IMG/VR virus record: IMGVR_UViG_3300014325_000011
Location: 51,126-115,125 of that record
Reading direction: 5' to 3' (one strand)
Length of the DNA stretch: 64,000 nucleotides
Source of the DNA: a virus
The stretch's first letter is position 1; the number at the start of each line of letters is the position of its first letter. The notes beneath the pieces are model-generated. The model did not search any database. It saw only the letters and a program-made list of their open reading frames with translations, and was not told the origin of the DNA. The translations under genes and the position numbers were made by a program. Positions 1,943-64,000 of the stretch are shown here, one piece after another.

Positions 1943-4900
1943 TCAGACCCCGGCGATACGGGCCAGACCGTTGCTGGGGTTCCGCCGGTTGTACCGGAGG
2001 GATTGCTTCTGGGTGGACTTGAAAACCTTCTGGCCGTCGATGACGACATCGGACGCCTGCACCGTCAGGTTGATCGTGATGCCGCCTCCGCCGCCCGACG
2101 GCTGCATCCCCACCCAGCCGCCGCCAGCCTTCCCGCCGGCCAGAATCGACTTGGTCTCGTTGGCCGGGTGGATGTAGGCCGGTGCGCCGAACACGGCCAG
2201 CTCCGGGCCACGCTCACCGACGAGCACCGCCTGGCCGACGGGCGGGGAACCACCCTCGGCAAACGGGGCAATCTTGTTCAGGGTGCCGACGAACCCGCCG
2301 ACCGCCTTGGCGACACCACCGATACCTCCGGTGATGGTGCTGATCGCATGACCGATCGAGTCGAAGATCGGTTTGAGGACGCCCCAGATCGTGGTAACTG
2401 TGGTCTTGATCCCACCCCAGATCGTGTCCCAGGTGATTTTGAGGGCGCGGAGCGCGGCACCGATCGCCGTGTCAAGCGCCCCGCCAATCGCGTTGAACGT
2501 CGGCGACAGGAACGACGTCCACACCGTGGACACGGCAGTGTGGATCGCCCCCCAGATCGTGTTCCACGTGGTCTGCAAAGCACGCAGCCCAAACCCGATC
2601 ACAGCGTCGAACGCCGAAGCGATCGCATGGAACGTTGGCGACAGGAAACCATTCCAGATCGCGGAGAGGGCTGTTTGAATAGCACCCCACACGGCGTTCC
2701 ATGTCGCCTGGAGCAGACGCAGCCCGAATCCGATGACCGCGTCGAACGCTGTTGCGATCGCGTGGAACGTGGGCAGCAGCACCGAGTTCCACACAAACGA
2801 CACGGCGGTGCCAAGCGCCGACCAGATCCCGTTCCAGATCGCCTGAGCTAGGCGAAGGTTACCGATGATGAACGTTTCGACGCCTGAGACAATCGCATGG
2901 AAGGCGGGCAGCAGCACCGAGTTCCACACCCAGTTGACTGCGGTTCCGAGCGCATTCCAAACGGTTCGCCAGGCAGTTTCCAGCCAGCGGATCGCCGTTC
3001 CAATCGTGCCGGTGACGACCGAGGCAACACCCTTGCCGAACGGTTCGAGCACGTTGTGCCAGAACCAGAGGACCGCCTTGCCGATCGCCCGGTAGGCGAT
3101 CTCCCAGGCGAGCACCTGCAACCGGATCGGCAGCAGCAGAAGGTTGATCGCCTTCGCGATGGCCTTGAGGATCGGCTCCAGGAAATGCCAGGTGGCGAGC
3201 GCTGCTGTTCTGATCGCACCCCACGTGACCCGGGCCGCGGTCGTCAAAGCGCCTGTGACGGCCCGCCAGGCGGTTTCAACCCCACCGACGGTCGCCCGAA
3301 ATGCTGAGACGAACGGGCGAGCGACGGCCGACAGGAACGAGATTGTCGCCCGCCACGCTGTCGACAGTGCCGATCCGACCGCATGCCAGGCGGTGACGAT
3401 CCCACCCCACGCCGCCTTGAGGCCGCCGATCATGCCGTTCCAGCCGGCGACGAAAAACCCGGAGACGGCATGCCACGCGGTCACCAGCGCGCCGAGGGTC
3501 GCCGACCAGGCGATTTTGAGTGCGTCCCAGACCGCGAGCGCGGCGGTTTTCATCGCACCCCAGACGGTCGACCAGTGCTTGACGAGTTCGTAGATGGCGA
3601 AACCGAGCAGCGCCAGAGCCGCGACGATGAGAATCACAATCGCTGTGATCGGTGCGGCGGCGACCTCTGCGCCGACCAAGGCAATCCCGAGCGCAACAAC
3701 AGCCTCAATCACACCGTAGATCCACATGGCGACGGAAAGTGCCATAAGGGCCGCGAACGCTATGACGATGCCCTTTGTCAGGTTCTGATGGCTCGCGAAA
3801 AACTTGGCGATCGCTTCTAGCTTCGGAATCAGCCAGTTGCCAAGCTGGATCATCAGCGCCTTGGCGGACATCTCCAGTTGCTTCAACTGCTGGGAAAACG
3901 AGTTCGCCTGCGTGGACGCGAACGCCTTGTTGATGTCGCCGGTCGCGGAGCCGGCAGCCTTGACCTTCTCCGTGTAGACCCCGTAGGCGCCGATCATGTC
4001 GGAGATCGAGTTGCCGCCCTTGGTCCCGAACATGCTGGTCAGGGCGATCTGCTTCTTCAGATCGGCTTCCTTGCCCGAGCCGTACAGCTTGTCGAGCGAC
4101 ATCTTGATGTCACCGATAGCCTTCGGCAGGCCGCCTGTCGTAATGTCTTTCGACAGCTTGTCTACGGACAGGCCCATCTCGTTGAAGTATTTCGGTGCCG
4201 TCGCCGCGGGATGCAGCAGATACTTCATAGTGTTCGTCATCGCCGTGCCGGCAGCGGCGCCGCGAAGGTTCATGTCACCGAACAGGGCGAGAGACGCCGT
4301 CACATCGGTGATCGACAGGCCATAGTTCTTCCAGATCACGACGTTGCCCTTGCCGAAGGCGTCGGACATGTCCTGCATGGACATGTCACCTTCACCGACA
4401 GCAGCAACGAGCTGACCGGCCGCCTTGGAAAGGTTTTCCATCCCGGGCAGGCCGGAGACCATCGCCGCGTCGAGGGCGTTGGTTACGTCGACCAGGTTCG
4501 CCCCGGAGACCGCGGCGGCCTTACCGGCGATCGTCAGGACATCCATCGCCTTCGGGGCGCTGGTCCCCATCGACTTCGTGGCGGCCTCGACGTGGAGCAG
4601 CGCTTCGGCAAGCGAATCCGGGTCTTGGCCGATTTTGCCGGCCAGGGCGAGCACTTGGCCTTTGAGTGCGTTGACCTGCGGCATGGTCATGCCCAACTGG
4701 GAGTTGAGCTTGACCATCTCCTTGTCAAAGTCGGCGGCCATTTTGACCGACTCGGCTCCGACGGCGATGAATGCGACGGCGGACGCTTTGCCGAAGGCGG
4801 TGACGGCTTTGCCCATGGAGGCGACGGCCTTCTCACGGGACGCGGCAATCTTCGCGTCCGCGGCGGCCTGCGCGGCTACTTGGGCGTCGAGGGCGGCCTT

Positions 4901-6403: not shown

Positions 6404-7627
6404 CTACTGGAAAGTCGAACTGGAGATCGCCGACTTGGTGACGATCGTGCAGGCCCCGAAGCCGCCGGAGGCGCCCACGTTGGTCGTGTTCCCGATCGCC
6501 GAAAAGTCGGTTTCGACGGTCGTGTAGTCCTGGCCGCGGCCGACCTTCGCACCCCGATAGGACACCGACTGCATGGCAATGTCGATGCCTACCAGCGACG
6601 CCCCGCTACCGGCTTCGAAGTTGACCGTCAGGGCCGGGTTGGTGGCGTTCAGATAGCGAAGGAACTCGGTTTCGTCCGCGGCGATGAACGTCAACTTGCC
6701 AGTGGCGGCGAGCGGCCCGAGCCACACGGCATAGGGGCCCTGAACGCCGTCAACGGTGTTCAGCACCTTCACGTCGCGTTTGAGCTGCAACTCGCCGGAC
6801 TGGACGTAGAGAACCGGGCTACCGCCGATCGACGTCACACCCCGCCACGCGGGAAGCGGCGGACTGATACCCGACCACGACGAGGTCGGCTTGGGGATGA
6901 CACCGGACGGCCAGCCGGTGAGCTTCGCCGACCAAGTCAGCAGAGCTTCCGACGACCAGGTGATCGTCAGTTCGGATACGACGCTTCCCGGGTAGGCACG
7001 GGCCTTGTTCGACGAGGCACCGGTCAGACCAGAGAAGTCCGCGATGGTCAGCGATTCGGGCTGGCCGCCGCCGTACACACCAATGTTGTTCTTGATGTTG
7101 AAGGTGTGGCTGTACGGGGCCGACCCTCCGGTGACGGCATAGTCGCCGAGCAGGGCGCCGAGAAAATAGCCGATGCTCTCCGGGTACACGTCACCGGAGG
7201 TGCTGTACTCCGAATGGATGACACCGGGAATCGCCCCGAACAGGCCCACCTCGGAGCCGCGGTAGCCCATGTCCTCAAGAATGGTCAAGTTGTCGACGGG
7301 CTCAAACGTCTTGACCGGGATGTACGCGGTCGGGGCGGCGTTCGCGGCGGTGACGACGACAAGGTTCCCGGCACTGTGCGCTGCGACGGTCGCCGCACAG
7401 GTCACCGTGGTCCCCGACACCGACGTATAGGCGACCGTCTCAACGGTTGTGCCACCAGACGTCGGATCGTAGATGGTGAGGTTGCCGGAGTTCGGCCAGT
7501 TGGTGGTGTCCGAAACCGACAGCGACGTCGCCGACTGGTTCGCGCTCGCGGTCAGGAACGCCCGGTACTTGTCGAGGGACACGCCTAGGTAGGAGAGATT
7601 GGTTGCCTGTGCCGGAGCCGCGCTCAC
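6404..7627 (-). CDS. Major tail (tube) protein with an inserted accessory beta-domain
   Basis: 407 aa. SYLGV...YIPVKTFEPVDNLTILEDMGYRGS...G.VYPESIGYFL..LLG, and ARAYPGSVVSELTIT, typical of phage tail-tube proteins. Position just before the chaperones. Confidence 0.85.
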   Translation of the reverse strand: MSAAPAQATNLSYLGVSLDKYRAFLTASANQSATSLSVSDTTNWPNSGNLTIYDPTSGGTTVETVAYTSVSGTTVTCAATVAAHSAGNLVVVTAANAAPTAYIPVKTFEPVDNLTILEDMGYRGSEVGLFGAIPGVIHSEYSTSGDVYPESIGYFLGALLGDYAVTGGSAPYSHTFNIKNNIGVYGGGQPESLTIADFSGLTGASSNKARAYPGSVVSELTITWSSEALLTWSAKLTGWPSGVIPKPTSSWSGISPPLPAWRGVTSIGGSPVLYVQSGELQLKRDVKVLNTVDGVQGPYAVWLGPLAATGKLTFIAADETEFLRYLNATNPALTVNFEAGSGASLVGIDIAMQSVSYRGAKVGRGQDYTTVETDFSAIGNTTNVGASGGFGACTIVTKSAISSSTFQ

Positions 7628-13766: not shown

Positions 13767-15382
13767 AGTGCGCTCCAGGTGAGGCGACCCAGCCGCAGTG
13801 CGCGGGCAGAAGAGGCAAGAGTTCGCAGCCGCGCCGTGTAGCCCAGCGCCGCCGAGCTCGATGGCAGGTTGGTCGTGTGCGTCGCGGCCAACGTCCCGTT
13901 GACCCAGAACCGGACCTGCGACACGGCGCTGTTGATCTCAATCAGCAGCTCGTACGCACTGTCCAGCACAATCGCCGACGTCGTGGTTGTGACTGTCGCC
14001 GTCGTCCCCGAGCTGGTGACTGTCCGCCAGACCGCCGTCCCGTCAACCCCGGTGTCATATCTGAGCCATGCACCCTGCGCGGTGCTGTACGAGCCGGTCG
14101 TCGCCGGACCGGCGTTGCCCGCAATGTCGGCGGAGACGAGACCCACCGCGAGCCGCGTCGAGGTGATCGCCGAAGGGTCGGTACGGATCCGGGCGTAGAC
14201 GTAGGGCGCCCACCTGGGTTGGATCACCCCGAACGGGGAGATCAGCCCGGCGTCAACCGACGAAGCCGCTGTGGTCGTGTACCGGACCAGCGGCCCTTCC
14301 GCCTGGTCGTCGGAGGTCGGCGTGATGTTGACGGTCGCGACGGTTGGTGGCGAGACCCCGTCGAGGATCAGCGTTGTATCGCCGCCCGGTGCGGCAACAG
14401 ACGCCGTCCGCCGGGTCACAGGGGCCAGCAGCTCATCCTCATGACCGACAGACGAGCGTGCCCGAGGGCGGCCGTTGCGCACCCAGATGACCGAACCCTC
14501 GGCAGTGGTGAACGACCCTTCCGCCTGGTGCGACCCGTCCGGGTTACCGGTCGGCGGGGTCGACGAGTTGCCGAGCGCGAGCACGTCCACGCCGCCGGCG
14601 GGGTCACCGGCCGCACCCCGGATACCGCCGCCAGCGGTGATGACAGATGCCCGGGTGGTGACTGTCGGCGCGGTACCGATCGCATCGGAGGGCTGCCCCG
14701 AATACATGGTCGCTCCGCCGACCTGGCCGACGCCGAAGACCGGGGCGCCGGCATAGTCGCGGGCGAGGATCAGGTTTTTCGTCGACGATTCTCTGCCGCG
14801 TACGACCAGCCCGTCATGGGAGGCGTCGGGTAGGAGGAGATTCCAAACGCCTTCGTTGGTGGAGCCGGTGCCACCGAAGTTCCGCTGAACGGTGCCACCG
14901 GACGTGTAGCTACCAGAGCCGGTCGTCGATTGGAGAGTGAACTGGGTGGGCGCAACCTTGGTGATCGTCTTGACGCCGTTGACGCCTGTGATGCCGCCGA
15001 CGTTCGCGATCGTCACCACGTCGCCCGTGCCGTAGCCATGGGATGCGCTGGTGGTGACCGTGACCGTTGTCGTACCGGTCACGTTGGAGATCGTCAGCGG
15101 CGCGTCACCGGTTTGGATCGTCCCGTCGGCGAGCAGACCCACCCGGGCCAACAGGTCTGCGGCCTGCTTGACCGCGAGCACCACCGCGGACGTGGAAGCG
15201 GCCGTGGTCTGGGTGGCTACAGCGCCGATGTCGGAGGGGGCGATCGCGTCGCCGCCGCCTGTGAGGTGCTGGTCGGCGTGGGTGTTGACCCGGTTGACGA
15301 TGGTCGTCAGGGCCGTGTTGAGGGTGGTGTCCCAGGCTGCCTGGTCGTGCGTTGGCAGCGTGGGGTTGATAGGTCCAGTCAC
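13763..15382 (-). CDS. Virion fibre protein with a TVTTSASHGY..GDVVTI (E1-FCCH-like) beta-domain and a C-terminal lectin-like domain
   Basis: 539 aa; N-terminal ~55 aa paralogous to 17068..19536. Confidence 0.65.
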   Translation of the reverse strand: MTGPINPTLPTHDQAAWDTTLNTALTTIVNRVNTHADQHLTGGGDAIAPSDIGAVATQTTAASTSAVVLAVKQAADLLARVGLLADGTIQTGDAPLTISNVTGTTTVTVTTSASHGYGTGDVVTIANVGGITGVNGVKTITKVAPTQFTLQSTTGSGSYTSGGTVQRNFGGTGSTNEGVWNLLLPDASHDGLVVRGRESSTKNLILARDYAGAPVFGVGQVGGATMYSGQPSDAIGTAPTVTTRASVITAGGGIRGAAGDPAGGVDVLALGNSSTPPTGNPDGSHQAEGSFTTAEGSVIWVRNGRPRARSSVGHEDELLAPVTRRTASVAAPGGDTTLILDGVSPPTVATVNITPTSDDQAEGPLVRYTTTAASSVDAGLISPFGVIQPRWAPYVYARIRTDPSAITSTRLAVGLVSADIAGNAGPATTGSYSTAQGAWLRYDTGVDGTAVWRTVTSSGTTATVTTTTSAIVLDSAYELLIEINSAVSQVRFWVNGTLAATHTTNLPSSSAALGYTARLRTLASSARALRLGRLTWSAL

Positions 15383-15421
15383 GGGGGCTGCTCACCCCCG
15401 TGACTCGACTAGGTCATGCGG

Positions 15422-15730
15422 CTAGGAAGCTTCGGACACGTGCGCGGCGGGGACCTTGCAGATCTTCGGTGCGTGCGGGCCACGGAGCCTGTGCTGGTCG
15501 GCCGGGCCCGGGTCGCCGGTCTTCTTCCATCGGGCATAGTGCATCCCGCACCATGTTCGGCAGTGAACCGGTTGGTCGCAGCCGGGGACGGTGCAGACCG
15601 TCGGACGGCTCGGCCTCGCCGCCCGAGGTGTGCCGTACTTGCGGTGCCACGACCGGTAGTGGTTCTTGCAGCGCCCCTTGGCGTAGGAGGGGAGTTCACA
15701 TTCGTCGTTCAGGCAGATAGCCTTGGCCAC
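15422..15730 (-). CDS. Cys/His repeat protein resembling the N-terminal Zn-binding part of phage HNH endonucleases (probable truncated HNH)
   Basis: C-x4-C...C-x2-HY twice (CLNDEC..CKNHY; CTVPGC..CGMHY..W..TGDP), a third copy truncated; no HNH core. Confidence 0.6.
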
Positions 15731-43651: not shown

Positions 43652-44701
43652 CTAGAGGCCCAGACGTCGAGCGGGGTTGGTCGCGTCGAGCGCCCGACCC
43701 CGCTGCACGTAATTGCGGGCGATCTTGACCGACTTCCACCGCCCCTGTCGCATGATCTCTCGCTCTTCGACGCCCGCCCTCGCGGCAGTCGTCGCGAAGC
43801 CAGAGCGCAACGAGTGACCCGCGAAGTCGTCGGCATCTAGCCCCGCCGCCGTCGCGCGCCGCTTCACGATGAGGGCCACACTCTGCGGCGACAGGCGACG
43901 GGGGAGGATCTGCCCCGAGCGGGCGACGGGCCGGAACGCTGGACTGACATCGTGGCCAGAGTCGGCAAGCAGGGCACACCATGCCTGCCACGCATGTACC
44001 GGGCTGGTTGCCTCCCGGTCGCCGGGCGGCAGACCGATGATGTCGCCGTCGGAACGCTGGTCGGTCTTCGACGTGGCGATCAGCACTTCTAGCCCTTCGC
44101 CTGTGTCGACGATGTTGGCCAGGTCGAGTGCGGCCAGTTCGCTGCGCCGCATTGCTCCGGCAAGGCCGAACAGCAAGATTGCGCGGTCGCGGACATCGGC
44201 CGGCTTGTCAGGGTCGAGCCCGGCCACGAGGCGAACGACGGTGGCGGTGGTGGCCGCGGTCTTTGGCGCCGAAGAGAACTCCGGGCCACGGCGCGCGATG
44301 CCTTCAAGGACGAACTGCACGGCTGCGTCGCCCGTAGGGGAGTTGTGGCCGTGGGCCTTGTGCATGACGGAGATGGAGGAGACGCGACGGAGGATCGTCG
44401 ACGTCTTCGCGGGCCTACCGCCAGTCGCCTCAGTGCCGTTGTTCGCGAGGTCGGTGACGTAGCGCCAGACGGCATCGGGGGTGGCCGGTAGAGGATCGGA
44501 CTCGTGACGCGCACACCAGCCGACGAAGTGCGCCCAGTCGGTTTCGTAGGCGCGACGCGTGTTCGGGGCCATCGACCGGTCGGCGTACTCGCGGGCCTGT
44601 GCGTCCAGCGCGGCATTGATCTCAGCGACCGAGCCGGGGACGGGGACGAGCACGCCAGCCGACACCGTTTCCAAGGTCATTACCGACCACTCTCCCGCCA
44701 T
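43652..44701 (-). CDS. Cre-like tyrosine recombinase
   Basis: APNTRRAY..DW..F..WC N-terminal domain; RDRAILL...MRRSEL, SKTDQ, GHSLRSG, GRWKS...Y catalytic set. Confidence 0.92.
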   Translation of the reverse strand: MAGEWSVMTLETVSAGVLVPVPGSVAEINAALDAQAREYADRSMAPNTRRAYETDWAHFVGWCARHESDPLPATPDAVWRYVTDLANNGTEATGGRPAKTSTILRRVSSISVMHKAHGHNSPTGDAAVQFVLEGIARRGPEFSSAPKTAATTATVVRLVAGLDPDKPADVRDRAILLFGLAGAMRRSELAALDLANIVDTGEGLEVLIATSKTDQRSDGDIIGLPPGDREATSPVHAWQAWCALLADSGHDVSPAFRPVARSGQILPRRLSPQSVALIVKRRATAAGLDADDFAGHSLRSGFATTAARAGVEEREIMRQGRWKSVKIARNYVQRGRALDATNPARRLGL

Positions 44702-57744: not shown

Positions 57745-57792
57745 GGATCTATTGTCCTAGACTGTCCTTGATCCGTCAAGTATCTAGGACAA
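57745..57792 (-). promoter_or_regulatory. Leaderless early promoter with operator
   Basis: TTGACG-17-GACAAT-6-ATG, flanked by the TTGTCCTAGA/TCTAGGACAA inverted repeat. Confidence 0.75.
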
Positions 57793-58881: not shown

Positions 58882-59359
58882 TCGACGGGGGGCGGCAGTT
58901 CCAAGCCCAGGTCTTCGCGGATTTCGCGGAGAAGTTTAGAACGGAGTTCAGCTTCGTAAAGCGCGCGGGCGCGTTCGAGTCGCGGCTTGGTGGTGTCGTT
59001 TCCTACGGCGTCGAGCGCCTGGATCAGAAGCTTCGCCCGTGACCCCACCGTCATTGCCTTGCGCCCGCCGGCCACAGCTCCCCCAAGAGATCGCCAGTGC
59101 CACCACCTGTCGGCCATCGGACATTAGGCGATCGTTCGACATTTGCACAAGATTTTCCGGCAGCCGTGTGTGCCGGTTGTGTGCCCTGAGCAGCCAGAAT
59201 AACAGAGTGTCGCGGCCAATTGGGGTTGGAAGCGGACAGATCGGTCGTGTCGTTAACTGTGTGCCGATCATACGCAGGTCGGCCCGTTGTGGCCTCCTTG
59301 AGCTATCCGGAACGGCCCTCCACTTCTACATAGGTGTAGATAAGTGTGCCTCCCTAGCC

Positions 59360-59548
59360 CTACCAGCCGCGGGCGCGCCATTCGGCGAGGTGGGGGCGCT
59401 CCCGGCCGAGGGTGGAGTCCTTGCCGTGGCCGGGGTAGATCCAGGTGGTGTCGGGCAGCGGGCCGAAGACCTTGGCCTCCAGGCCGTCCATCAGACTCCG
59501 AAAATCAGCCGGAAGTGTTGTCCGCCCGGGGCCGCCCGGGAACAGGCA
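59360..59548 (-). pseudogene. 3' fragment of a host-type MBL-fold metallo-hydrolase
   Basis: CLFPGGPGRT...F.SL...E.KVF..LPD.TW.YPGHG..STLG.ERPHL.EWRARGW*; the HxHxDH-containing 5' part is absent. Confidence 0.85.
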
Positions 59549-59562
59549 GTGTCCCAGCCGGC
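59531..59562. other. Candidate attP core for the serine integrase
   Basis: Imperfect inverted repeat GCCGcCcGGGA-N10-TCCCaGcCGGC centred where MBL similarity begins, 15 nt before the integrase ATG. Confidence 0.55.
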
Positions 59563-59576
59563 TAACATGACCGACC

Positions 59577-61040
59577 ATGGTGAACGGCGACGAAAACCAC
59601 CTCGAACCCGCCATCTCCTACGGCCGCGAATCCTACGACCGGTACAACGACGAACACACCGTCGACGCCCAGCTCGCCGGCAACCGCGACGCCGCACCCC
59701 ACCTCGGCCTGCGGATCGTCACCGAACGGCGCGACGATGACATCTCGGCCCACGACGGCACCCACCGGCCCGGCTACCAGCAGGTCGTCGACGACATCCG
59801 CGGCGGCGTCGCCCGAGTCGTCCTCGTGCTGCACACCTCACGGCTGTGGCGGGACCGGGTCGAACGATCCAAGGACATCAACCTGTTCGGCACCTACGGG
59901 GTGCGGATCGTCGCCCGCCGCGGACCCCACCTCGATCTGTCGACAGCGGCAGGCCGCGGACTCGCCGGGCTGATGGGCGAGTTCGACACGATGGAGTCCG
60001 AGACGAAAGGCGAACGGGTCCGCGACGAGCTGGCGCTGCGTGCCGCCGCCGGCCGGTCGATCGGCCCGGTGGCCTACGGCTGGCGCCGGGAAAACGTGTT
60101 CGACGACCGGGGCCGTCGGGTCGACTTCAACGACGTGGAGCATCCCGAGCAGGCCGACGTGGTCCGGTGGATCGTCGATCAGCTTCTCGCCGGCAAGTCG
60201 ATCAAATGGGTGGTGGCCAGTCTCAACGACCGCGGCATCGTCGCCCCCGGCGGAGGGCTGTGGCTGCCTTCCGGGGTTCGGAAGGTGGCTCTGCGGCCGG
60301 CGAACATCGCCCGGAAGGTCTACAAGAGTGCGGACATCGGTCGGGCAGTGTGGCCAGCGATCGTCGACGAGGACAAACATCATCGGGTTGTCGCCCTGCT
60401 GAACGATCCAGTGCGGCTCACGTCCCGGTCGGGTGCCCGGCAGCATGCGCTCACCTACAACGCCGACGTCGGCCGGTGCGGGGTGTGCGAGGGACCGCTG
60501 GCTGTCCACACGGTCAAGACCGGGCGACGGCGGACGGCGCATGTGCTATACGCCTGCCAGAAGGGCTGCGTCGGCCGCAACCAGGAGAAAGTCGACCTGA
60601 TGGTCGAAGGGATGGTGATCGGTGTGCTGGCCCGTCCCGACTGGCGTCGCCGGTTCGACCGGAAAGACACCCGCGCGGTGGCAGCCCGAACCCGAGCGGA
60701 GGCGCTGCGGGCACGACTGCTGCAAGCCACCGACGACTACGACGAGGACCGGATCACCCACGAACAGTTCCTACGTCAGACAACTCGGCTCCGGGACCGG
60801 ATCGCCGAACAGGAGGAGATCGCCCGTCGGGCACAGCCCGGGGTGGGGCCGGAGCTTGCCGAGGGGCTGACGGACGGGCCGGTTGAGGATCGGGTGCGTC
60901 GGTGGCGGGCGCTGTCGGCGGGTCAGAAGCAGCGCCTGTTGGCCGCGTTGCGGGTCCAGGTTCGGATTCTGCCGGTGCGTCGGAAGGGTGCCGGGTTTGA
61001 TCCGACGTCGGTGCTGATCGTCGAGTTGGACGATGCCTGA
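59577..61040 (+). CDS. int: Large serine recombinase (integrase)
   Basis: YGRES catalytic Ser, DDDISA...RPGY...SRLWR, ESETKGER, YGW recombinase domain, CGVC...YAC Zn ribbon, coiled coil. Confidence 0.95.
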   Translation: MVNGDENHLEPAISYGRESYDRYNDEHTVDAQLAGNRDAAPHLGLRIVTERRDDDISAHDGTHRPGYQQVVDDIRGGVARVVLVLHTSRLWRDRVERSKDINLFGTYGVRIVARRGPHLDLSTAAGRGLAGLMGEFDTMESETKGERVRDELALRAAAGRSIGPVAYGWRRENVFDDRGRRVDFNDVEHPEQADVVRWIVDQLLAGKSIKWVVASLNDRGIVAPGGGLWLPSGVRKVALRPANIARKVYKSADIGRAVWPAIVDEDKHHRVVALLNDPVRLTSRSGARQHALTYNADVGRCGVCEGPLAVHTVKTGRRRTAHVLYACQKGCVGRNQEKVDLMVEGMVIGVLARPDWRRRFDRKDTRAVAARTRAEALRARLLQATDDYDEDRITHEQFLRQTTRLRDRIAEQEEIARRAQPGVGPELAEGLTDGPVEDRVRRWRALSAGQKQRLLAALRVQVRILPVRRKGAGFDPTSVLIVELDDA

Positions 61041-62766: not shown

Positions 62767-63555
62767 GTGAACGCCGACCGGCGAGTGCCGAACTACCAGC
62801 GGATCGCGGACGCGCTGATGGCCCGCATCGACTCTGGCGAGTTCCCGTCTGGCTCCCGGCTCCCCACCGAACCCCAGTTGAAGGCCGAGTACGACGTCTC
62901 GTCGACGACGGTTCGCAACGCCGTCAAGGCGCTGGCTGCGGCTGGCATCGTGGAGACCCGCCACGGAGCCGGCACGTTCGTCATCGAGCGGAAGCTGTTG
63001 ACGATCAACGCGACGACGACCGAAGACCTTGACCGGCGCCGAGGCATCGTCGCCCAAGACTCGTGGAGCACCGACGTCAAGGAAGCCGGGCGCGAGCCGG
63101 ACCAGCGGTTCGAGTGCTTGAACGTAGCCGCGTCCGATGAGCAGGCGAAGCTGCTAGGTGTCGAGCCCGGTGCGTGGCTGGTCATGCGCCGCTGCTGGCG
63201 AACCGTTGATGGCATCCCAGCGTCCATCGAAGCCAGCGTGTTTCCGCGCTGGCTCGTCGACGCCCTACCTGAGCTTGGCTCTCCGCATGACATCGCACAA
63301 GGCACGACGTCCTTCGTCGCCGAGCGGGGTTACCCGATGGAAGTCCACCTCGACTACGTCTCTGGACGACCGTTCACCCGTGAGGAAGAGTCGTTCTTCC
63401 GGGCACCTGCCGGCGTGCAGGCACTCATCCGCGGGCGGGTCAGCTACGACAAGCCAGATGGGCGCGTATTGCGGATCATGGAGACGGTGTACCGCAACGA
63501 CATGCACAAGATCCTGTATGTCGTTGCCGGGCGCGGGAACGCGACGTCACGGTGA
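62767..63555 (+). CDS. GntR/HutC-family regulator (wHTH plus UTRA)
   Basis: YQRIADAL...GSRLPTE..L...YDVS..TVR.A...L...G....HGAGTFV. Confidence 0.93.
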   Translation: MNADRRVPNYQRIADALMARIDSGEFPSGSRLPTEPQLKAEYDVSSTTVRNAVKALAAAGIVETRHGAGTFVIERKLLTINATTTEDLDRRRGIVAQDSWSTDVKEAGREPDQRFECLNVAASDEQAKLLGVEPGAWLVMRRCWRTVDGIPASIEASVFPRWLVDALPELGSPHDIAQGTTSFVAERGYPMEVHLDYVSGRPFTREEESFFRAPAGVQALIRGRVSYDKPDGRVLRIMETVYRNDMHKILYVVAGRGNATSR

Positions 63556-64000
63556 CGCCAACCCTGTACCTGAGAACCGCGGTCACTGCTGACGCCGCAC
63601 TGATCCTCGACTGGCGGAAGGCCACCGCAGAATGGCTGGCAGCCACCTACGGCACCGATCAGTGGTCGATCCCATACGACTGGGCAAAGGTTGAACGGTG
63701 GGTCTCCGAGGGGCACACGTTCATGGCCGCGCTCGAACCGGACGGCGAACCGGTCGCGACGATCACCAGCACGCCGGAAGGTGATCCGGCACTCTGGACA
63801 CCCGAAGAGCTGGCGGTGCCCGCGCGGTACCTGAACAAGGCGAACGTGCGCCGGGAGTATGCCGAACTCGGCATCGACGCGTGTCTCATCTCTTGGGCGG
63901 CGACACGGGCCGCGAAGCAGGGCGTCGGCTTGGTGCGGATCGACGTGTGGTCCACCAATCATCGACTCCACGACTACTACCGGAACATGGGGTTCCGCTA
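63552..64000 (+). CDS. GNAT acetyltransferase; partial, runs off the right edge
   Basis: AEWL...GTDQW...YLNKANVRREYAELGI...VRIDVWSTNHRLHDYYRNMGF; GTGA overlap with GntR. Confidence 0.85.
   Translation, partial: MTPTLYLRTAVTADAALILDWRKATAEWLAATYGTDQWSIPYDWAKVERWVSEGHTFMAALEPDGEPVATITSTPEGDPALWTPEELAVPARYLNKANVRREYAELGIDACLISWAATRAAKQGVGLVRIDVWSTNHRLHDYYRNMGFR

What the first reader, a model, noticed from the sequence alone, without database searches (positions are those of the whole stretch)
59340..59580. Serine-integrase attP carrying a replacement 3' end of its host target gene (MBL hydrolase)
Seen: a start-less 62-codon C-terminal fragment of an MBL-fold hydrolase begins abruptly at (H)CLFPGG, where host proteins read GDxLFPGG. 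It starts inside an imperfect inverted repeat just upstream of int. Phage-type genes, and matching promoters, lie on both sides. Known: 3'-end replacement is familiar for tyrosine integrases at tRNA genes, while large serine integrases need only a 2-bp core and usually disrupt their target. Inference: attB lies in the host MBL gene, and integration rebuilds a chimeric full-length enzyme. The window therefore appears to show the unintegrated (attP) form.
Basis: partly seen in the sequence, partly recalled or inferred. Interest (0 to 1): 0.72.

Follow-up and report, generated by a model that had tools for sequence, protein, structure and literature searches.

The report
Phage attP that rebuilds host gene
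A 115-kb circular phage of Frankia-like soil bacteria keeps its docking site inside a spare copy of the last 60 codons of a host hydrolase gene, so inserting into that gene should leave it whole. Known K5 mycobacteriophages share this design, where it had gone unexplained.

Summary

- **Fragment.** Window 59360-59548 (minus strand) is a start-less 62-codon 3' end of a glyoxalase-II-like MBL hydrolase (E 8e-33). It lies 28 nt from a large serine integrase gene (59577-61040).
- **Unintegrated form.** The contig closes into a 115,002-bp circle and holds no 5' part of the gene, so this is the attP form.
- **Relatives.** The closer integrase relatives (35-80% identical) show the same layout, in K5 mycobacteriophages, a 59.5-kb viral contig and integrated elements of five actinobacterial genomes. 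One metagenome-assembled genome supplies empty site, attL and attR, which share only TTCC in the Phe-Pro codons of LFPGG.
- **Half-site geometry.** An 8-bp motif sits 18 bp from the centre in phage-type arms and 13 bp in host-type arms. This held at 22 of 22 sites and matches the published attP/attB rule.
- **Likely host site.** A Pseudofrankia-like metagenome gene matches the phage exactly over a 25-nt core and the last 135 nt up to the stop codon. Only a 31-nt patch that sets the phage-type arm differs.

No lysogen of this phage was found and nothing was tested at the bench. The scan met this target site before in mycobacteria (e1-4202812, e1-5232373). I rate it a new member of a known kind.

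The parts
59516..59567 (.). Predicted attP of the serine integrase, about 52 bp, centred on AA at 59541-59542 (TT in the gene sense, inside the Phe codon of LFPGG).
   Evidence: Dyad symmetry is 14/25, in the top 0.36% of the window. Outer motifs lie 18-25 bp from the centre on both arms, in register with the int-side arms of the relatives tabulated. The attB/attL/attR triad shares only TTCC.
59541..59542 (.). Inferred crossover dinucleotide.
   Evidence: It lies inside the TTCC shared by attB (L011), attL (L017) and attR (L010). It is also the centre of symmetry of the outer motifs. Inferred, not shown.
59516..59523 (.). P-arm outer motif TGTTGTCC (GGACAACA in the gene sense, codons R-T-T). 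Probable zinc-ribbon-domain contact.
   Evidence: The same motif lies 18-25 bp from the centre in all phage- or element-borne copies, and 13-20 bp in all host-type arms.
59560..59567 (.). P'-arm outer motif GGCTAACA, 10 nt upstream of the int ATG.
   Evidence: It is in register (18-25 bp from the centre) in the int-side arms tabulated.
59360..59548 (-). Phage-borne replacement 3' end of the MBL (glyoxalase-II-like) hydrolase gene: 62 codons plus stop, no start codon. It carries the last metal-ligand motif, YPGHG.
   Evidence: Family naming comes (TIGR03413-like; PDB 2xf4, deposited as hydroxyacylglutathione hydrolase).
59526..59550 (.). 25-nt core identical to the candidate attB of metagenome locus L084.
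   Evidence: Exact-match scan and alignment.
59495..59525 (-). Phage-specific 31-nt patch (34 nt in the host). It encodes RTTLPADFR in place of NTFGDAAAFT and moves the outer motif 5 bp outward.
59360..59494 (-). 135-nt block 100% identical to the native gene of L084. The identity ends at the last base of the stop codon.
59577..61040 (+). Large serine integrase, 487 aa.
   Evidence: PF00239 and PF07508 and phrog_95 integrase. Ser19 and Cys301, 304, 327 and 331 are invariant in 21 relatives.

Best explanation
Window 59516-59567 is the attP of the large serine integrase encoded at 59577-61040, in a circular 115-kb temperate actinophage. Its host is most likely Pseudofrankia or a close relative.

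The target, attB, is about 40 bp in a conserved glyoxalase-II-like MBL hydrolase gene. It spans the codons LFTGDCLFPGGPGNT. Strand exchange occurs at TT in the Phe codon of LFPGG.

The gene-side arm of attP lies inside a phage-borne copy of the last 60 codons of that gene. Integration therefore joins the host's first ~158 codons in frame to the phage copy, giving a full-length chimeric gene at attR. The host's own 3' end is left as a silent orphan next to int, at attL.

The phage copy differs from the host gene only in a ~10-residue stretch (RTTLPADFR for NTFGDAAAFT). That change moves an 8-bp motif from 13-20 bp to 18-25 bp from the centre. This is the 5-bp shift that distinguishes attP from attB half-sites for this enzyme class.

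Shown: the anatomy, the circular form, the integrated relatives with attB/attL/attR, the motif registers, and the identity blocks with a native gene. Inferred: the exact crossover dinucleotide, that the motif is the zinc-ribbon-domain contact, that this phage integrates, and that the chimeric enzyme is active.
For: 1. The fragment and its breakpoint are real.
2. The genome is circular and has no 5' part of the gene.
3. The same layout occurs beside the closer integrase relatives (35-80% identical). These are K5 mycobacteriophages, a 59.5-kb viral contig, and integrated elements in G001, G002, G003, G103 and G202. Most remoter or equally distant relatives lack the fragment.
4. The G003 triad of attB, attL and attR shares only TTCC.
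5. The G202 element has an integrase 81% identical to that of the cultured phage Larva, with matching arms.
6. All 22 sites (44 arms) carry the register that their context predicts: P/P' at 18 bp, B/B' at 13 bp. This is the rule published for LI integrase (PMC3783163).
7. L084, whose protein is 91% identical to the Pseudofrankia protein, shares exact 25-nt and 135-nt blocks with the phage and no other phage DNA.
8. The closest integrase (56% identical) and a GRTT-type MBL protein both come from Pseudofrankia sp. BMG5.37, each from a contig of 500,977 bp. A second pair shares a contig length of 42,094 bp.
9. Four of the five element-borne copies in bacterial genomes, and all four phage or viral-contig copies, keep the frame to RGW-stop. 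dN/dS among phage- and element-borne copies is 0.11-0.19 where synonymous sites are not saturated.
Against: - No lysogen of this particular phage was found, and no recombination assay exists.
- The candidate attB comes from a metagenome contig, not a named host.
- The motif rule was derived from the same sequences it is scored on, and some margins are small.
- One chimeric gene (G103) is frameshifted, so the rebuilt gene is not always kept.
- GRTT-type genes are also native in five genomes checked that have no orphan copy; four also lacked any integrase hit, and G256 has only a distant one (32% identity). The 'phage-type' arm is therefore not diagnostic of an element.
- The phage also encodes a tyrosine recombinase.
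- Pfam's zinc-ribbon model was not matched, and no solved structure was found by sequence.
Confidence: 0.85

Rival explanations
1. The window is an integrated prophage, and the fragment is the host's own 3' end at an attL or attR junction (a scar).
For: An int-adjacent MBL 3' fragment looks the same in attL and in attP. Integrated relatives show exactly this.
Against: The contig closes on itself, with a gene reading through the junction, and it is a virus record. No 5' part of the gene is present. Identity to the host gene stops at the stop codon, with no shared flank. The arm is P-type, as in the other three virus-genome sites, whereas all seven attL junctions are B-type.
Confidence: 0.03
2. 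The fragment is an inert relic of an old imprecise excision. The integrase now uses a different site, or is not used.
For: No lysogen of this phage was seen. The phage is large and also has a tyrosine recombinase, so it might persist as a plasmid.
Against: The layout, frame and arm registers are conserved across integrases only 35-56% identical. dN/dS is 0.11-0.19. All invariant integrase residues are present. The exact 25-nt and 135-nt identity with a native gene argues for recent contact with that locus.
Confidence: 0.06
3. The fragment is a free-standing small gene, as annotated in K5 phages ('hydrolase', 43 aa), with a function of its own.
For: GenBank annotates gp38 as a hydrolase. A genome announcement calls it a 43-residue protein related to hydrolase C-termini (PMC5679794). 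A mechanical 84-aa ORF exists here.
Against: It holds only the last of the MBL metal-ligand motifs. No start codon is conserved. Homology starts exactly at the recombination core in every lineage. In integrated relatives it is fused to the host 5' part.
Confidence: 0.03
4. The tyrosine recombinase at 43652-44701 is the true integrase, and the serine recombinase serves another reaction such as inversion or resolution.
For: The tyrosine recombinase has PF00589 and an N-terminal SAM-like domain.
Against: The serine enzyme has the size, domains and Cys4 of integrases, not of small invertases. Its relatives flank integrated elements at this gene. No att-like gene fragment was examined or seen next to the tyrosine recombinase.
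Confidence: 0.03

Closest known systems
Subcluster K5 mycobacteriophages (Larva, Kratio, Collard, AlleyCat, Edugator, Psycho and others): gene 38 'hydrolase' next to serine integrase gene 39
   Same: The layout is the same: an MBL 3' fragment (66% identical) divergent from an integrase 38% identical. The P-arm motif TGTTGTCC, its 14-nt spacing to GGGAA and the P'-arm register all match. An integrase 81% identical to Larva's flanks an integrated 10.9-kb element in the MBL gene of genome G202.
   Different: The host genus differs, and the genomes are 61-63 kb rather than 115 kb. In the papers I could read, the fragment is only noted as a 43-residue hydrolase C-terminus, with no link to attP (PMC5679794).
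Large serine integrases with defined att sites: Listeria A118/LI integrase, Bxb1, phiC31
   Same: There is an N-terminal serine catalytic domain, a recombinase domain and a Cys4 motif. attP is about 50 bp and attB about 40 bp. The outer motif is shifted 5 bp toward the centre in attB, as published for LI integrase (PMC3783163).
   Different: Those systems are reported to cut their target gene. [quoted passage not shown] Here the gene is rebuilt, the attP/attB core is 25 nt, and one attP arm is coding sequence homologous to the attB arm.
Burkholderia phage JC1 integrating into rimO (PMC9144972)
   Same: A phage with a serine recombinase has attP just upstream of the recombinase gene. After experimentally mapped integration, the target gene stays in frame.
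   Different: JC1 replaces the 5' end: about 10 codons and a new ATG, with an 18-bp overlap. It does not carry a homologous 60-codon 3' end.
Tyrosine-integrase phages and islands at tRNA genes
   Same: attP carries a copy of the 3' end of the target. Integration leaves an intact gene plus a displaced copy (PMC8092301).
   Different: The enzyme family and mechanism differ, and the target here is a protein-coding gene. Serine recombinases at tRNA genes are reported as rare: Mycobacterium integrative conjugative elements in tRNA-Leu and phiRSM1 in tRNA-Ser (PMC3218068).
Streptococcal conjugative elements with a single serine integrase in rumA (PMC4701971)
   Same: Serine-integrase integration alters the 3' part of a protein-coding target.
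   Different: There the 3' parts of rumA and of the integrase gene are exchanged, with a change of frame. The authors count these insertions as disruptions.

Membership tests
Large serine recombinase (serine integrase) | N-terminal resolvase-type catalytic domain with the serine nucleophile | tested here: met
   PF00239, E 1.1e-17, residues 12-160. Y15, R17 and S19 are invariant in 21 relatives.
Large serine recombinase (serine integrase) | Recombinase domain (PF07508) following the catalytic domain | tested here: met
   PF07508, E 1.1e-8, residues 190-274. phrog_95 integrase, E 3e-68.
Large serine recombinase (serine integrase) | Zinc-ribbon domain with four cysteines and an inserted coiled coil | tested here: inconclusive
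   C301, C304, C327 and C331 are invariant. However, Pfam PF13408 did not match even at E 5, and no solved structure was found by sequence. The coiled coil was not tested.
Large serine recombinase (serine integrase) | attP about 50 bp and attB about 40 bp, with the outer half-site motif 5 bp closer to the centre in attB | tested here: met
   22 sites (44 arms) follow the rule according to their context. The rule is as published in PMC3783163. The motif was derived from the same sequences.
Large serine recombinase (serine integrase) | Recombination at a 2-bp crossover without host factors; excision needs a directionality factor | not testable with these tools
   TT is inferred from the TTCC shared by attB, attL and attR. 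No directionality factor was identified.
Integrative elements whose attP carries a replacement end of the target gene | attP contains a homologue of the target's end, and the occupied site has an intact gene plus a displaced copy | tested here: met
   G001, G002, G003 and G202 have an intact chimeric gene plus an orphan copy. In G103 the chimeric gene is frameshifted.
Integrative elements whose attP carries a replacement end of the target gene | The replacement copy is kept functional by purifying selection | tested here: met
   dN/dS is 0.11-0.19 among phage- and element-borne copies and 0.12-0.28 against their own host's orphan, over only 46 codons. Enzyme activity was not tested.
Gene-disrupting 'regulatory switch' prophages (A118 in comK, SPbeta in spsM) | Integration splits the target gene, and only excision restores it | tested here: not met
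   A full-length in-frame gene remains in four of five occupied sites (G202).

The most novel reading that the evidence does not exclude
The phage-borne patch may do more than repair the gene. If a prophage is lost by homologous recombination between the two 135-nt tails, the host keeps the phage-type (GRTT) arm. That turns attB into an attR-like site that this integrase clade can no longer use. On this reading, the GRTT alleles seen in five genomes with no orphan copy and no close integrase relative would be footprints of past integrations that immunise the locus. The arrays of displaced tails would record repeated rounds. The P arm itself would be a re-registered copy of the B arm, which shows how an attP can arise from an attB.
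Probability: 0.2. Interest if true: 0.75.

Novelty: new member of a known kind. Interest (0 to 1): 0.55.

Why it matters
- **A counter-example to the usual view.** Serine integrases are usually described as cutting their target genes. Here a whole clade, spanning phages of Mycobacterium and of Frankia-like hosts plus small integrated elements, repairs its target with a 60-codon spare end.
- **A view of how attP relates to attB.** One attP arm is visibly homologous to the attB arm and differs by a short coding patch that shifts the outer motif by 5 bp. This gives a natural system for asking how attP and attB diverge and what sets their identity.
- **Testable now.** K5 phages grow on M. smegmatis, so the prediction can be checked at the bench.
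- **A possible tool.** The integrase with its attP could serve as a non-disruptive integrating vector for Frankia and Pseudofrankia, which I understand lack good genetic tools (my own knowledge).
- **An annotation fix.** The small 'hydrolase' genes of K5 phages should be read as part of attP.

Tried and rejected
- I therefore could not fetch Pseudofrankia or Frankia DNA or lay reads to look for junctions.
- Megablast of the region against deposited phages found nothing.
- A viral-contig scan with the single integrase found nothing. An alignment query was needed.
- I tried to reach Frankiaceae through the family of the best DNA hit, G156. That family is only 62-69% identical to the Pseudofrankia protein, so it is not the host family.
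- phmmer of the integrase against solved structures gave no hit.
- I considered that GRTT-type genes always mark an element. I rejected this because five such genomes have no orphan copy.
- The exact-seed inverted-repeat tool found only 6-nt palindromes. The imperfect dyad needed a custom scan.
- I did not fold the hydrolase to place the variable patch on the structure.

Full report
**What is in the window**

The minus strand of window 59360-59548 reads 62 codons, CLFPGG...RARGW, followed by a stop. A search restricted to longer proteins returned 1878 MBL-fold hydrolases of about 216-232 aa. All aligned to their C-termini. The best was a 220-aa protein of Pseudofrankia sp. BMG5.37, with E 8e-33 and 92% identity over residues 157-218.

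The family is glyoxalase-II-like. It scores below cut-off against TIGR03413. The nearest solved relative is 2xf4, deposited as a hydroxyacylglutathione hydrolase.

The fragment has no start codon of its own. The 84-aa ORF listed at 59360-59614 simply runs on, antisense to the first codons of int. Int (59577-61040, 487 aa) has the Resolvase and Recombinase domains. Ser19 and four cysteines are invariant in an alignment of 21 relatives.

**The window shows the free form**

- The window is the last 64 kb of a single 115,125-bp contig.
- The contig's first and last 123 bases are identical. A 184-aa GNAT gene reads through the junction, giving a 115,002-bp circle.
- The tools call it a virus record.
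- It encodes a tape measure protein, a portal and minor tail proteins. It also encodes DnaB, endonuclease VII, a C5 methylase and an HNH endonuclease.
- tblastn found no 5' part of the MBL gene anywhere in it.

**Relatives show integration at this gene**

A genome scan with the integrase found three bacterial relatives, 35-40% identical. All three have an MBL 3' fragment directly upstream of int on the opposite strand.

- In Nocardioides (G001), a full-length MBL gene lies about 8 kb further on.
- In the Actinocrinis metagenome-assembled genome (G002), one 13-kb contig holds the full-length gene at one end and int plus the orphan fragment at the other.
- Among 401 genomes of one order, 23 integrase homologues reached E 1e-40. 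Three of them (G103, G202 and G003), including the two best-scoring, have the fragment. The other 20 do not, including some with similar percent identity.
- G103 and G202 carry elements of 9.9 and 10.9 kb, with the same arrangement.
- In viral contigs, the four loci with the fragment (Larva, Collard, and contigs of 59.5 kb and 10.8 kb) are among the closer integrase relatives. The best-scoring locus, L165, starts 30 nt upstream of int, so it could not be checked.
A second integrase/MBL pair shares a contig length of 42,094 bp. I infer adjacency from this; it is not shown.

**The crossover point**

The Nocardiaceae metagenome-assembled genome G003 holds three versions of the locus, presumably from a mixed population.

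- L011 is an intact native gene.
- L010 is a full-length gene nearly identical to L011 up to ...ctgTTCC, and diverged after that point.
- L017 is an int-adjacent fragment nearly identical to L011 from TTCC onward.

The only sequence shared by all three at the joint is TTCC, the Phe-Pro codons of LFPGG.

In the window, the outer motifs TGTTGTCC (59516-59523) and GGCTAACA (59560-59567) are symmetric about 59541|59542. The dyad score there is 14 of 25, in the top 0.36% of all centres in the window. I therefore place the crossover at TT (AA on the plus strand, 59541-59542). This is an inference.

**Half-site geometry**

I classed 22 sites by context alone:

| Class | Context | Number |
|---|---|---|
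| attP | virus genomes | 4 |
| attL | int-adjacent junctions | 7 |
| attR | far-end full-length genes | 5 |
| attB | empty sites | 6 |

Every phage-derived arm has a GGACAACA-like motif 18-25 bp from the centre. Every host-derived arm has it at 13-20 bp.

Rutherford et al. reported for LI integrase that the zinc-ribbon-domain motif in attB is shifted 5 bp toward the centre relative to attP (PMC3783163). The pattern here matches that rule.

In coding terms, host genes read G-N-T or G-K-T after FPGG. Phage and element copies read G-R-T-T or G-R-T-I and are one codon shorter than the GNT-type host genes.

One caveat applies. The motif was read from these same sequences, and a few margins are small.

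**The likely attB of this phage**

A metagenome scan with the native Pseudofrankia protein found L084, whose protein is 91% identical to the query and reads PGNTFGDAA after FPGG. Its DNA compares with the phage as follows:

| Window segment | Length | Relation to L084 |
|---|---|---|
| 59526-59550 | 25 nt | identical; spans the crossover |
| 59495-59525 | 31 nt (34 nt in L084) | diverged |
| 59360-59494 | 135 nt | identical; ends at the last base of the stop codon |

No other phage DNA is present in L084.

After integration the enzyme would differ from the native one only by RTTLPADFR in place of NTFGDAAAFT. The exact tail identity suggests recent recombination between the phage and host copies. 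On that view, the patch is retained because attP needs it.

**Selection**

- All four phage or viral-contig copies, and four of the five element-borne copies in bacterial genomes, keep the frame to RGW-stop. The G103 copy is frameshifted.
- Over the last 46 codons, dN/dS among the phage- and element-borne copies tested is 0.11-0.19 where synonymous sites are not saturated.
- Against each element's own host orphan, dN/dS is 0.12-0.28.

**What is known**

- K5 mycobacteriophages have the same layout. It is annotated as a 43-aa 'hydrolase' next to the serine integrase. A genome announcement mentions it only as a protein related to hydrolase C-termini (PMC5679794).
- Two surveys state that serine-integrase elements disrupt their target genes (PMC8092301; PMC4701971).
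- Exceptions exist. Phage JC1 keeps rimO in frame by supplying a new start (PMC9144972). Some actinobacterial elements with serine recombinases sit in tRNA-Leu (PMC3218068).
- I found no paper naming the MBL gene as an attB.
- This scan met the same target in mycobacteria before (e1-4202812 and e1-5232373).

**Limits**

- There is no lysogen of this phage and no bench test.
- The host is inferred from protein identity and one metagenome contig.
- GRTT-type genes also occur in five genomes checked that have no orphan copy. Four of these also lack any integrase hit; G256 has only a distant one, at 32% identity.
- The tally of 349 of 401 genomes includes five unpublished genomes (G234, G151, G010, G354, G220). 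No other claim rests on them.

Noticed in passing
window 63878-64000 and contig bases 1-123: An exact 123-bp terminal overlap closes the contig into a 115,002-bp circle. A 184-aa GNAT acetyltransferase gene, preceded by a GntR/UTRA regulator at 62767-63555, reads through the junction.
   Followed up: yes
window 43652-44701 (minus strand): A second recombinase is present: a tyrosine recombinase with PF00589 and an N-terminal SAM-like domain. Its role (dimer resolution or a second integration system) is unknown.
   Followed up: partly
window 57751-57780 and contig 14280-14309: A 30-bp exact inverted repeat links the region left of the attP-int block to a site about 94 kb away. It overlaps the 'twin promoter/operator' noted by another first-reader entry.
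   Followed up: no
L060 (G359:C51) 2386-3051, 3501-3692, 7180-7374: An intact native (VGNT-type) MBL gene is followed by two decayed GRT-type tails, one with an internal stop, and no integrase. This order is the reverse of a simple occupied site. It resembles the integrase-less tail arrays reported earlier in the scan.
   Followed up: partly
L013 (G002:C190) 1507-1722: The same metagenome-assembled genome has a second orphan tail. It has a phage-type int-side arm (GGTAACA in register) but no integrase. A 421-aa protein of unassigned function (not scanned against any family library) converges on it, and its downstream flank differs from that of the first orphan. This could be a tandem or decayed element.
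   Followed up: partly
L006 10001-17890: The ~8-kb integrated element in Nocardioides carries the integrase and a Phage_capsid gene (14760-15602) but no full phage gene set, which suggests a satellite-like element. The same integrase/attP module thus serves phages of 60-115 kb and elements of about 8 to 12.4 kb.
   Followed up: partly
L059 (G103:C2) 2600-3248: The chimeric MBL gene at attR is frameshifted just after PGRTTRP, while the displaced native tail next to int is intact.
   Followed up: no
window 59563-59568: The outer P'-arm motif contains TAACAT, 8 nt before the int ATG. Relatives have TAACAT, TAATAC or GAATAC in the same register. The half-site may double as the -10 box of int.
   Followed up: no
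L153 1863-2510 and 4564-4803: A metagenome contig has a full-length GNT-type MBL gene and a second GNT-type tail 2 kb downstream, with no integrase in the stretch held.
   Followed up: no
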